Positions 57,201 through 60,200 of a DNA stretch of 64,000 bases are shown here, one piece after another (position 1 is the first letter of the stretch; every line of letters begins with the position of its first letter). The stretch is taken from the NCBI RefSeq assembly GCF_055900595.2, contig NZ_CM148325.1; one strand, given 5' to 3'. Position numbers: made by a program.

Positions 57201-60200
57201 TATCCATGTGATCCTGCCTGGTGCCCTGCCCTCAATTATGGTCGGCGTACGTTTTGCGTTGGGCCTGATGTGGCTGACGCTGATTGTTGCCGAAACTATT
57301 TCTGCCAATTCCGGCATTGGTTATCTGGCGATGAATGCACGGGAGTTTTTGCAAACGGATGTGGTGGTAGTCGCCATTATTCTCTACGCCCTGCTCGGCA
57401 AACTTGCTGACGTCAGCGCGCAGCTGTTAGAGCGCCTCTGGCTGCGCTGGAATCCGGCTTATCATTTGAAGGAGGCCACGGTATGAATACTGCTCGTCTG
57501 AACCAGGGCACACCCTTGTTACTCAATGCAGTAAGCAAACATTACGCGGAAAATATCGTCCTGAACCAACTGGATTTACATATTCCCGCAGGTCAGTTTG
57601 TGGCGGTGGTGGGCCGCAGCGGTGGTGGCAAAAGTACCCTGCTGCGCCTGCTGGCAGGTCTGGAAACGCCAACCGCAGGCGATGTGTTAGCGGGGACCAC
57701 ACCGCTAGCTGAGATTCAGGAAGACACGCGAATGATGTTTCAGGATGCGCGTCTGCTACCGTGGAAATCGGTGATTGATAACGTTGGGCTGGGCCTTAAA
57801 GGCCAGTGGCGCGATGCCGCGCGTCGGGCGCTGGCTGCGGTAGGGCTGGAGAATCGCGCGCGGGAATGGCCTGCTGCACTTTCTGGCGGGCAGAAACAGC
57901 GTGTGGCGCTGGCAAGAGCGTTGATTCATCGACCGGGTTTATTATTGCTTGATGAACCGCTCGGGGCGCTGGACGCCCTGACTCGGCTCGAGATGCAGGA
58001 TTTGATTGTGTCACTTTGGCAGGAGCACGGCTTTACCGTACTGTTGGTGACGCATGATGTGAGCGAAGCGGTAGCAATGGCGGACCGGGTGTTGTTAATT
58101 GAAGAGGGAAAAATTGGTCTGGATTTGACGGTGGATATCCCCCGTCCGCGCCGGTTAGGGTCGGTGAGATTAGCGGAGCTGGAAGCGGAAGTGTTGCAAC
58201 GGGTGATGCAGCGTGGGCACTCTGAACAACCGATTCGGCGTCATGGTTAATATGCCGGATGTGGCGCACAAAACCAGCGGTTTCAACGGATTGTAGGCCT
58301 GATAAGACGCGTCAAGCGTCGCATCAGGCATTTGGGCACGGCTGCCGGATGCGGCGTGAACGCCTTATCCAGCCTACAAAACCAGCATTTTCAACGGACT
58401 TGTAGGCCTGATAAGACGCGTCAAGCGTCGCATCCGGCATTTGGGCTCAAAAGTATCAAGCCAGTGCTTTAGTTATCTTCTCGTACAGATCGCCAGAGAG
58501 ATTTTCCAGCCCTTTCAACTGCTCCAGCGCCGCGCGCATTTTCTCCTGACGTTTGGCATCGTAACGCTTCAGGCGAATCAGCGGTTCAATCAGACGTGAA
58601 GCCACCTGCGGGTTACGGCTGTTGAGGTCGGTAAGCATTTCCACCAGGAACTGGTAACCGCTACCATCTTCGGCATGGAACGCTGCCGGGTTGCTGCCCG
58701 CAAACGCGCCAATCAACGAACGAATGCGGTTCGGGTTGCTCATGGTAAATGAGCGATGCTGCAACAGACCACGCACCGTCTCCAGCACATTCGCCGCCGG
58801 GCTGGTGGCTTGCAGGATAAACCATTTATCCATCACCAGACCATCCTGATGCCACTTGTCGTCGTACTCCTGCATCAGCGCGTCACGGCATGGCAGCTGT
58901 GCAGCAACCGCCGCAGAAAGCGCGGCCAGCGCATCGGTCATATTGTTTGCTGCATGGTACTGCTTGCTCACCAGCACGTCAGCCAGATGCGTTTCACCAA
59001 AAGCGAGGAAGCGCAGGCAGGCATTACGCAGAGTGCGTTTTGCAATATCTTCATGCTCAACGCGGTACTCGCTCTGATAATTTGCGTTATAAATAGCCAG
59101 CAGCTCATCCGCCAGTTCAGTCGCCAGAGTACGGGTAAGTGCTTCGCGTACTTCGGCAATAGCAATCGGATCGATGATATCGAACAGCTCCGCCATTTCA
59201 TTGACGGATGGCAGCGTCAGAATTTCTGCCGCCAGTGCCGGGTCAATCTTCTCATCCAGCAGCACCGCGCGGAAAGCATCGGCAACGTGTGCGGGTAAAG
59301 ACAATGGTTGACCTTGCTGATGACGGGCGACGTTCAGTTTGATGTAGGTTGCCAGCAAACTTTGTGCCGCATCCCAGCGGGAGAAATCATTACGCGCATG
59401 GCGCATCAGGAAGGTCAGTTGCTGATCGCTCCACTTATATTCCAGTTTCACTGGCGCAGAGAATTCGCACAGCAGTGCGGGCACCGGCTGGAAGTAGACA
59501 TTATCAAAGACAAAGGTCTGTTCCGCCTGGGTGACGTTCAGCACCGAATTGACCGGATGACCGCCTTTCTGCAACGGGATCACTTTGCCTTCGTTATCAT
59601 ACAGTTCGATGGCAAACGGAATATGCAGCGGCTGTTTTTCTGCCTGATCCGGCGTAGCTGGCGTGCGCTGGCTGATGGTCAGGGTGTACTGCTCAGTTTC
59701 TGGATTGTAGTCGTCTTTGACGGTCACAATCGGCGTACCGGACTGGCTGTACCAACGGCGGAAATGGGAGAGATCGACATTTGACGCATCTTCCATCGCC
59801 TGAACAAAGTCGTCGCAGGTTGCCGCACTGCCATCATGGCGCTCGAAATAGAGCTGCATCCCTTTCTGGAAGTTTTCTTCGCCCAGCAGAGTGTGGATCA
59901 TGCGAATCACTTCCGCGCCCTTCTCATAAACGGTCAGGGTGTAGAAGTTGTTCATTTCAATAACCATATCCGGGCGGATCGGGTGCGCCATCGGGCTGGC
60001 GTCTTCCGCAAACTGCAATCCGCGCATGGTGCGCACGTTGTTGATACGGTTTACCGCGCGGGAACCAAGGTCAGAGCTGAATTCCTGATCGCGGAAGACG
60101 GTTAAACCTTCTTTCAGGCTGAGCTGGAACCAGTCGCGACAGGTCACACGGTTACCGGTCCAGTTGTGGAAATATTCGTGACCAATAACGCGCTCAATAT

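What the first reader, a model, noticed from the sequence alone, without database searches (positions are those of the whole stretch)
58252..58448. BIME-like cluster of REP palindromic units between ssuB and pepN
A roughly 60-bp unit containing gtaggcctgataagacgcgtcaagcgtcgcatc(a/c)ggcatttgggc is present twice as a direct repeat (about 58278-58337 and 58385-58446), flanking an oppositely arranged REP (gccggatgcggcgtgaacgccttatccagcctac). This looks like ordinary REP/BIME architecture and explains the repeat signal here; only two copies are present, so it is not a CRISPR array.
Basis: partly seen in the sequence, partly recalled or inferred. Interest (0 to 1): 0.2.

Follow-up and report, generated by a model that had tools for sequence, protein, structure and literature searches.

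The report
Ordinary REP/BIME-2 cluster between ssuB and pepN
The repeat is a routine cluster of E. coli's common "REP" palindromes sitting in the short gap where two genes end facing each other; it is a well-known kind of element, not a CRISPR array, and the only mildly interesting point is that strains differ in whether they carry it.

Summary
The 205-nt spacer (58251-58455) between the convergent genes ssuB (+) and pepN (-) is a BIME-2-type cluster of REP palindromes. It holds a truncated Y head, then Z2 (inverted), Y and Z2 (inverted), joined by short linkers. The Y and Z2 units differ by 1-2 positions from those of the model BIME-2 REP325. Rfam's naRNA4 model, built on REP325, matches at 82 bits against a threshold of 59.5. 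Similar sequence occurs at about 35 or more places in every E. coli genome. Both strands fold very stably (-99 and -96 kcal/mol) and neither has a U-tract. Of 5,426 complete E. coli genomes, 2,060 carry the BIME, 3,166 (including K-12) carry a 42-nt terminator-like hairpin instead, and 186 carry the BIME with the REP-specific insertion sequence IS1397 in the loop of the last Z2. Other Escherichia species carry the BIME with 1-3 units, so it is probably ancestral. Its most likely role is a shared 3'-end hairpin module that stabilises the mRNAs and attenuates read-through, and possibly a gyrase site. Ordinary; low interest.

The parts
57483..58250 (+). ssuB, the last gene of the ssuEADCB operon. 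Its stop codon TAA is at 58248-58250 and its transcript runs into the BIME.
   Evidence: ORF list. RefSeq annotation of the identical genome NZ_CP098223.1.
58254..58267 (+). Truncated Y-type REP, head half only (GCCGGATGTGGCGC). Compared with the full Y at 58344-58377 it has an 18-nt internal deletion that removes the loop and the 3' arm.
   Evidence: Direct repeat family D3. Gapped alignment of unit 1 against unit 2. E. albertii keeps the undeleted, though decayed, version. On its own it folds only weakly, -5.3 kcal/mol.
58268..58292 (.). Tail-to-tail linker, copy 1 (ACAAAACCAGCGGTTTCAACGGATT).
   Evidence: Direct repeat family D2, 91% identical to 58376-58398.
58293..58329 (-). Z2-type REP (a), 37 nt. 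Read head to tail on the - strand it is GCCTGATGCGACGCTTGACGCGTCTTATCAGGCCTAC.
   Evidence: Differs from the REP325 Z2 by one inserted loop base. Hairpin energy is -20.4 (+ strand RNA) and -21.3 (- strand RNA) kcal/mol.
58330..58343 (.). Short head-to-head linker, S-type (ATTTGGGCACGGCT).
   Evidence: Its reverse complement AGCCGTGCCCAAAT resembles the REP325 head-to-head linker AACGGTGCCGACT. No IHF core motif is present.
58344..58377 (+). Y-type REP, 34 nt (GCCGGATGCGGCGTGAACGCCTTATCCAGCCTAC).
   Evidence: Two differences from the REP325 Y. Hairpin energy is -15.1 and -17.3 kcal/mol.
58378..58401 (.). Tail-to-tail linker, copy 2 (AAAACCAGCATTTTCAACGGACTT).
   Evidence: In strain PS10-3 it is replaced by the 12-nt linker AAAACCCGATTC.
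58402..58438 (-). Z2-type REP (b), whose head is Y-like (GCCGGATG). Its loop GTCAA at 58420-58424 is where IS1397 sits in other genomes.
   Evidence: IS1397 junctions GTCA|IS|GTCA and TCA|IS|TCA in L003, L004, L005, L008 and L009.
58439..58455 (.). Partial second copy of the head-to-head linker (ATTTGGGC, 58439-58446), then 9 unique nt up to the pepN stop codon.
58296..58374 (-). Match to Rfam RF02564 (naRNA4), that is, one inverted Y, the short linker and a Z2, on the pepN-sense strand.
   Evidence: 82.2 bits against a gathering score of 59.5, model positions 1-77 of 77.
58456..61068 (-). pepN (aminopeptidase N). Its stop codon is at 58456-58458 and its transcript runs into the BIME from the other side.
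   Evidence: ORF list. RefSeq annotation.

Best explanation
The spacer is a BIME-2-type cluster of REP palindromes (truncated Y, Z2, Y, Z2 in alternating orientation, with short linkers) that fills the shared 3' region of the convergent ssuEADCB operon and pepN.

What it is: shown here, near certain.

How it most likely works: inferred, about 0.55. Transcripts from either side read into the cluster. There is no promoter-like or U-tract terminator-like site inside it. The REPs fold into very stable hairpins, either separately or as a roughly 95-nt Y:Z2 super-hairpin. These hairpins would block 3'-to-5' exonucleases, so the ssuB and pepN messages end at protected 3' ends. They would also attenuate read-through into the opposing gene, partly through Rho. 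This is the dual terminator and stabiliser role reported for REP325 and, by correlation, for REPs between convergent genes.

At the DNA level, BIME-2 elements are reported gyrase binding and cleavage sites, which fits a place where convergent transcription piles up positive supercoils. This was not tested here.

The cluster probably grew and shrank in units of about 109 nt, by recombination, slippage or the REP-associated transposase. It also serves as a landing pad for IS1397.
For: Identity:
- The sequence and architecture are as described.
- The Y and Z2 units differ by only 1-2 positions from those of K-12 REP325, which Qian et al. 2015 (PMC4550694) describe as Y/Z2 repeats.
- The BIME-2 definition (Y plus Z2, short S linker, tandem and variable in number) comes from Ton-Hoang et al. 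2012 (PMC3333891).
- Rfam naRNA4 matches at 82.2 bits, above its 59.5 threshold.
- Similar sequence occurs at a median of 35 places per genome (a capped count) in 5,425 of 5,426 E. coli genomes.
- No IHF core motif is present.
- IS1397 sits in the Z2 loop with 3- or 4-bp duplications, in at least three independent events, and in 40 + 146 genomes overall.
- The number of units is 1 in E. albertii, 2 here, and 3 in SCPM-O-B-8794.

Mechanism:
- The + strand RNA folds at -98.9 kcal/mol (z = -8.1) and the - strand RNA at -95.6 kcal/mol (z = -7.2).
- No promoter-like and no U-tract terminator-like site was found.
- The alternative allele, in 3,166 genomes including K-12, has at the same position a 12-bp-stem hairpin of -25 kcal/mol. 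It scores as terminator-like in the ssuB direction. So a hairpin module occupies the site in the great majority of genomes.
- The BIME is kept with intact stems in E. whittamii, Escherichia sp. E1V33, and strains E69 and SCPM-O-B-8794. It is decayed in E. albertii, where all but the last 30 codons of ssuB are gone.
- Literature: REP325 acts as a partial Rho-dependent terminator and an mRNA stabiliser. REPs between convergent genes correlate with higher expression of both genes, and 78 REPs lie within predicted bidirectional terminators (bioRxiv 10.64898/2026.03.23.713779). BIME-2 elements bind gyrase strongly (PMC2817692 and PMC1475751).
Against: - Nothing here measures RNA 3' ends, half-lives, termination or gyrase binding at this locus. 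The mechanism is carried over from other REPs, whose effects the same preprint calls context-dependent and variable.
- 58% of E. coli genomes lack the BIME, so it is dispensable.
- The first Y is truncated, the full Y carries an extra stem mismatch (CCAGCC instead of CCGGCC), and Z2b carries one too. This is compatible with slow decay rather than selection.
- The decay seen in E. albertii may simply reflect greater divergence.
Confidence: 0.85

Rival explanations
1. A selfish or neutral remnant. On this view the cluster is left over from REP/BIME (REPIN-like) proliferation driven by the REP-associated tyrosine transposase. It has no host function at this site and is drifting in copy number and decaying.
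For: - It is absent from 3,166 of 5,426 genomes.
- The first Y is truncated, and Y and Z2b carry extra stem mismatches.
- The unit number varies from 1 to 3 and the linkers vary.
- The E. albertii copy is decayed.
- IS1397 insertions that split the last Z2 are tolerated in 186 genomes.
- In vitro, TnpA-REP cleaves and recombines BIMEs (PMC3333891).
Against: - The same architecture, with intact hairpins, is kept at the same position in at least four other Escherichia lineages.
- In the allele that lacks the BIME, a different strong hairpin takes its place rather than nothing.
- The literature reports local effects of REPs on expression.
- This view is not exclusive of the main explanation: a selfish origin and co-option by the host can both hold.
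Confidence: 0.3
2. A gene for a nucleoid-associated small RNA of the naRNA4 type, which would bind HU and bridge DNA cruciforms to organise the chromosome.
For: The Rfam RF02564 match is above the gathering score and covers the full length of the model. Qian et al. 2015 proposed this role for REP325 RNAs.
Against: - The Rfam model is in effect one Y-linker-Z2 unit, so any BIME-2 unit matches it.
- There is no promoter-like site in or next to the element, so any RNA would be a fragment of the pepN 3'UTR.
- The 2026 preprint, which shares an author with the original work, reports that REP325 and naRNA4 do not measurably compact the nucleoid and that REP-REP contacts are not seen.
- K-12 lacks the element at this site.
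Confidence: 0.04
3. A small or degenerate CRISPR array, or a chance repeat.
For: The only support is the presence of two direct copies about 109 nt apart.
Against: - There are fewer than two full units.
- The would-be spacer is itself a REP in the opposite orientation plus repeated linkers.
- The repeat belongs to a family dispersed at dozens of sites per genome.
- The neighbours are ssu genes, pepN and pncB, with no cas genes.
- The chance expectation is about 1e-22.
Confidence: 0.005

Closest known systems
BIME-2 family of E. coli REP (palindromic unit) clusters, for example REP325 between yjdM and yjdN in K-12
   Same: It has Y and Z2 palindromic units in alternating orientation and a short head-to-head linker related to that of REP325 (AGCCGTGCCCAAAT against AACGGTGCCGACT). 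It has GTAG/CTAC tails and stem mismatches, lies outside genes in a 3'UTR position, is repeated in tandem, and varies in copy number between strains.
   Different: - It has only about 1.8 units, against 6 in REP325.
- The period is about 109 nt against 100, because the tail-to-tail linker is 24 nt and unrelated in sequence to REP325's 17 nt.
- The first Y is internally deleted.
- The Z2 loop has one extra base.
- It sits between convergent genes, whereas REP325 lies inside an operon.
- K-12 has no REP at this site.
Rfam RF02564, naRNA4 (CssrE)
   Same: Full-length match at 82.2 bits on the pepN-sense strand, with the same two-hairpin Y/Z2 layout.
   Different: There is no evidence here of a discrete RNA or of HU binding. 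The proposed chromosome-organising role is itself disputed.
Hairpin terminators shared by convergent genes, such as the hairpin at this same site in K-12
   Same: Same position, and the same presumed job of ending and protecting both convergent transcripts. The K-12 allele has a 12-bp-stem hairpin at this spot, which the consensus scan flags as terminator-like in the ssuB direction.
   Different: The window's BIME has no U-tracts and fails the terminator scan. Any termination there would be attenuation or Rho-assisted rather than intrinsic.
REPINs, REP doublets mobilised by RAYT transposases (Bertels and Rainey 2011, PMC3116915, seen in the search listing only and not read)
   Same: Two inverted REPs, Y at 58344-58377 and Z2b at 58402-58438, pair into one long hairpin in the minimum-energy fold of either strand.
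   Different: Mobilisation by the E. coli RAYT (yafM) could not be tested. The two REPs are of different classes (Y and Z2) rather than identical.

Membership tests
REP / palindromic unit (E. coli) | An imperfect palindrome of about 34-37 nt with the conserved head GCC(G/T)GATG and tail (C/T)TTATC..GGCCTAC, including the GTAG/CTAC tetranucleotide | tested here: met
   Three full copies at 58293-58329, 58344-58377 and 58402-58438, plus one truncated head at 58254-58267.
REP / palindromic unit (E. coli) | The stem-loop has a conserved internal mismatch in the stem | tested here: met
   The folds show an unpaired position inside each stem. Energies range from -15 to -21 kcal/mol.
REP / palindromic unit (E. 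coli) | Located outside genes and dispersed at high copy number in the genome | tested here: met
   The cluster lies wholly between the ssuB and pepN stop codons.
BIME-2 | Made of Y and Z2 units in alternating (inverted) orientation | tested here: met
   Direct comparison with the Y and Z2 units of K-12 REP325. The family definition is taken from PMC3333891.
BIME-2 | A short head-to-head linker, without the long L linker and IHF site that mark BIME-1 | tested here: met
   The linker is 14 nt and related to REP325's 13-nt linker. The IHF core WATCAANNNNTTR is absent on both strands.
BIME-2 | Tandem copies whose number varies between strains | tested here: met
   About 1.8 units here, 1 in E. 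albertii, and 3 in SCPM-O-B-8794. Linker variants and an extra degenerate REP occur in other strains.
BIME-2 | Binding and cleavage by DNA gyrase | not testable with these tools
   Known from the literature only (Espeli and Boccard 1997, as cited).
Natural target of IS1397 | IS1397 inserts in the loop of the palindromic unit with a short target duplication | tested here: met
   A 1,432-bp IS1397 sits in the Z2b loop with a GTCA or TCA duplication, in both orientations. It is found in 40 + 146 genomes. Its specificity for palindromic units is stated in PMC1525189.
naRNA4 (Rfam RF02564) | Covariance-model score at or above the gathering score | tested here: met
   82.2 bits against 59.5, model positions 1-77 of 77, at 58296-58374 on the - strand.
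naRNA4 (Rfam RF02564) | A discrete RNA that binds HU and is associated with the nucleoid | not testable with these tools
   No expression data are available. No promoter-like site was found.
CRISPR array | Three or more regularly spaced direct repeats separated by unique spacers, usually near cas genes | tested here: not met
   There are two copies only, the sequence between them is an inverted REP plus repeated linkers, and no cas genes are among the neighbours.
Intrinsic (Rho-independent) terminator | A G+C-rich hairpin directly followed by a U-tract | tested here: not met
   No terminator-like sites were found in window 57900-58800. The K-12 allele at the same site does score.

The most novel reading that the evidence does not exclude
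The ssuB-pepN spacer may hold two old, alternative 3'-end modules that coexist within E. coli. One is a BIME-2 cluster, found in 38% of genomes plus 3.4% where IS1397 interrupts it, and ancestral in the genus. The other is a 42-nt terminator-like hairpin, found in 58% of genomes and linked to a strongly diverged ssuB tail. If the two alleles differ measurably in ssuB or pepN mRNA stability, read-through or local supercoiling, this locus would be a ready-made natural experiment. It could show whether REP clusters and plain hairpin terminators are functionally interchangeable, and whether the polymorphism is maintained by selection.
Probability: 0.2. Interest if true: 0.3.

Novelty: already known. 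Interest (0 to 1): 0.08.

Why it matters
It matters little. The result explains the repeat signal as a standard E. coli REP/BIME-2 element and removes any CRISPR or new-element reading.

The modest added value is at the level of this locus:
- K-12, whose REPs have been catalogued (355 annotated), has none here.
- The BIME is nevertheless the older state in the genus.
- The site shows a clean split into three alleles (BIME, hairpin, BIME with IS1397) across 5,426 genomes.

That split could be used to test the recently proposed terminator-plus-stabiliser role of REPs between convergent genes.

Tried and rejected
- **Tandem Repeats Finder** on 58000-58700 returned nothing. This is uninformative, because there are fewer than two copies and an 18-nt indel.
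- **First cross-species alignment** had three loci in the wrong orientation and was discarded. It was redone.
- **IS1397 primary papers**: PMC94167 and PMC169884 are not held. The specificity of IS1397 for palindromic units is therefore cited from PMC1525189 and the reference lists. That 3-4-bp duplications are typical of this IS is from memory; the duplications themselves are read directly from the sequences.
- **Locus-specific literature**: no paper in the held library links ssuB or pepN with REP or IS1397.
- **REP-induced ribosome stalling** at stop codons was considered (Liang, Rudd and Deutscher 2015, recalled from memory; the paper was not retrieved). That effect needs a REP within about 15 nt of the stop. 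Here the full REPs start 42 nt after the ssuB stop and 17 nt after the pepN stop. The truncated head 3 nt after the ssuB stop folds only weakly, at -5.3 kcal/mol. I judged the effect unlikely.
- **BIME-1 / IHF-binding RIB element**: rejected. There is no Z1 unit, no long linker and no IHF core.
- **Small ORFs** overlapping the REPs (58259-58405, 58332-58472, 58170-58331) were treated as spurious because they consist of REP sequence.
The class assignment therefore rests on the direct comparison with REP325.
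Full report
**Observation.** The window between 58251 and 58455 is the 205-nt spacer between two convergent genes. ssuB runs on the + strand (57483-58250, stop TAA at 58248-58250). pepN runs on the - strand (58456-61068). Both are named from the RefSeq annotation of a 100% identical genome, E. coli Z0117EC0005, NZ_CP098223.1.

The repeat finder gives a 47-nt direct repeat at 58291-58337 and 58400-58446 with 98% identity. A second family lies at 58268-58290 and 58376-58398 (91%), and a third at 58253-58266 and 58343-58356 (93%). A gapped alignment joins the three into one unit of about 109 nt, present about 1.8 times. The first copy lacks 18 nt. The chance expectation for the 47-nt pair alone is about 1e-22.

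**Anatomy.** Read on the + strand, the spacer contains the following parts.
- A truncated Y-REP head (58254-67).
- A tail-to-tail linker (58268-92).
- A Z2 REP in inverted orientation (58293-58329).
- A 14-nt head-to-head linker (58330-43).
- A full Y REP (58344-77).
- A second tail-to-tail linker (58378-58401).
- A second inverted Z2 (58402-38).
- A partial second head-to-head linker (58439-46).
- Nine unique bases up to the pepN stop codon.

I assigned the classes by direct comparison with REP325 of K-12, fetched as L007. The literature describes REP325 as six Y/Z2 repeats (PMC4550694). The window's Y differs from the REP325 Y at 2 positions. The window's Z2 has one extra loop base. The head-to-head linkers are related. 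There is no IHF core motif.

By the definition in Ton-Hoang et al. 2012, a BIME-2 has Y plus Z2 units, a short S linker, and tandem copies that vary in number (PMC3333891). This cluster fits that definition.

**Family evidence.** A 411-nt query spanning the spacer and about 100 nt of each flanking gene matched 172,752 places in 5,425 of 5,426 complete E. coli genomes. Rfam's naRNA4 model (RF02564), which was built on a REP325 unit, matches 58296-58374 on the - strand at 82.2 bits, above its gathering score of 59.5. The half-unit next to pepN reaches only 28 bits. Two other single REPs occur elsewhere in the window.

**Population and evolution.** Among 5,426 complete E. coli genomes the alleles at this site split as follows.

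| Allele at the ssuB-pepN spacer | Genomes | Source |
|---|---|---|
| BIME (spacer of 205-206 nt, or 192-193 nt with a shorter tail-to-tail linker) | 2,060 | |
| K-12-type 40-42-nt spacer with no REP | 3,166 | |
| BIME interrupted by IS1397 | 186 (40 in one orientation, 146 in the other) | |

The K-12-type spacer consists of the hairpin CCGAATGGCGGC-GCTATT-GCCGCCATTCGG, with a 12-bp stem and -25 kcal/mol. It scores as terminator-like in the ssuB direction.

In all five interrupted genomes I inspected, the 1,432-bp IS1397 sits in the loop of the last Z2 REP (GACGCGTCA|AGCGTC). The flanking duplications are GTCA or TCA. The orientations and backgrounds imply at least three independent insertion events. 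IS1397 is known to insert specifically into REPs (PMC1525189), so this is an independent, biological confirmation that these elements are REPs.

The two main alleles also differ in the end of ssuB. The last 30 nt are only 53% identical between the window and K-12. The encoded tails are [11 protein letters not shown] and GESETRLRKQG*. The pepN end is identical in both.

A scan of one genome per species with a pepN C-terminal pattern gave the following picture.
- E. whittamii, Escherichia sp. E1V33 and strain E69 have two units, with the same truncated first Y and the window-type ssuB tail.
- Strain SCPM-O-B-8794 has three units.
- E. albertii has a single decayed Y-Z2 unit with an undeleted first Y. 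It has lost all of ssuB except the last 30 codons.
- Citrobacter amalonaticus shares the EQPIRRHG tail and has its own REP here.
- Enterobacter hormaechei also has ssuB and pepN convergent, with hairpin-forming sequence of its own in the spacer.

The BIME state is therefore most parsimoniously ancestral in Escherichia, and the K-12 hairpin allele is derived or imported.

**Mechanism.** No promoter-like site and no U-tract terminator-like site lies in 57900-58800. Any RNA from the element is therefore read-through from ssuB or pepN. As RNA, the + strand folds at -98.9 kcal/mol (z = -8.1) and the - strand at -95.6 kcal/mol (z = -7.2). In both folds one Z2 forms a hairpin on its own, and the Y and the other Z2 pair into a long, REPIN-like hairpin. 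Individual hairpins are -15 to -21 kcal/mol.

The best-supported function is inferred, not shown. I take it to be a shared 3'-end module that blocks 3'-to-5' exonucleases and attenuates read-through, partly through Rho. This matches what was recently shown for REP325 and what was found by correlation for REPs between convergent genes. About 30% of convergent gene pairs carry a REP, both genes are more highly expressed when one is present, and 78 REPs lie inside predicted bidirectional terminators (bioRxiv 10.64898/2026.03.23.713779).

Two observations fit a requirement for a hairpin at this site. The alternative allele places a different strong hairpin at the same spot. The BIME is decayed where ssuB has been lost.

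BIME-2 elements are also reported to bind gyrase strongly. That would be plausible between convergent transcription units, but I could not test it.

The main rival is that the cluster is a neutral, selfish remnant. It is dispensable in 58% of genomes, its first Y is truncated, two of its stems carry extra mismatches, and IS1397 disruption is tolerated. This rival does not exclude the main explanation.

The naRNA4 nucleoid-RNA reading rests only on a model that any Y-Z2 unit satisfies. The 2026 preprint undercuts it.

The CRISPR and chance readings are excluded.

**Verdict.** It is refined in six respects: BIME-2 class, a unit of about 109 nt, a truncated fourth REP, a presence/absence polymorphism, an IS1397 hot spot, and ancestry within the genus. 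This is a textbook element in the species where the family was defined. Novelty: already known. Interest: low, 0.08.

Noticed in passing
window 53805-54013, between pyrD (52767-53804, -) and ssuE (54014-54589, +): The elfADCG-ycbUVF fimbrial operon, about 7 kb, lies between ssuE and pyrD in K-12 but is absent here, so pyrD and ssuE are direct neighbours. 1,352 of 5,426 complete E. coli genomes share this elf-less junction.
   Followed up: partly
window 58190-58250 (3' end of ssuB), compared with K-12 L002: The last 30 nt of ssuB are only 53% identical between the window and K-12. The encoded tails are [11 protein letters not shown] and GESETRLRKQG*. ssuB as a whole is 93.6% identical, while the adjacent pepN end is 96-100% identical. 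The window-type tail is shared with other Escherichia species and with Citrobacter amalonaticus, so the K-12 tail plus hairpin looks like a replaced or imported segment. Its source was not sought.
   Followed up: partly
L003, L004, L005, L008, L009 (other E. coli genomes, same site): IS1397 (1,432 bp) has inserted repeatedly in the loop of the last Z2 REP of this BIME. It occurs in both orientations, with GTCA or TCA duplications. It is found in 40 + 146 genomes.
   Followed up: yes
L010 (Escherichia albertii NBRC 107761), about 8499-8720: Only the last 30 codons of ssuB remain next to pepN, with 67% amino-acid identity, so the rest of the ssu operon is gone at this position. The adjacent single Y-Z2 unit carries many stem-breaking substitutions.
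   Followed up: partly
window 16661-16694 and 18102-18136: Two isolated REPs lie elsewhere in the window. The first is Y-type (GCCGGATGCGGCGTGAACGCCTTTTCCGGCCTAC) and is followed at about 16737-16770 by a hairpin with a T-run, judged by eye only. The second is Z-like and degenerate (GCCTGATGCGACGCTAATGCGCCTCATCAGGCTTAC).
   Followed up: no
window 7724-8146 (-): Rfam cspA thermoregulator match at 160.9 bits. By synteny with K-12 this is probably the leader and gene of the cspA paralogue cspG. That is my inference and was not checked.
   Followed up: no
window 53772-53845 (-) and 26967-27054 (+): A PyrD leader (Rfam RF02373, 98.1 bits) and a tRNA-Ser with anticodon tga. Both are ordinary, expected features.
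   Followed up: no
L021 ('E. coli' SCPM-O-B-8794) and L005/L009: Larger variants of the same BIME. SCPM-O-B-8794 has three full units, that is, 5 REPs plus the truncated head. NA3664 and E700025 carry an extra degenerate REP (GCCGGATGCGCGTAAACGCCTTATCAGG) after the first Z2.
   Followed up: partly
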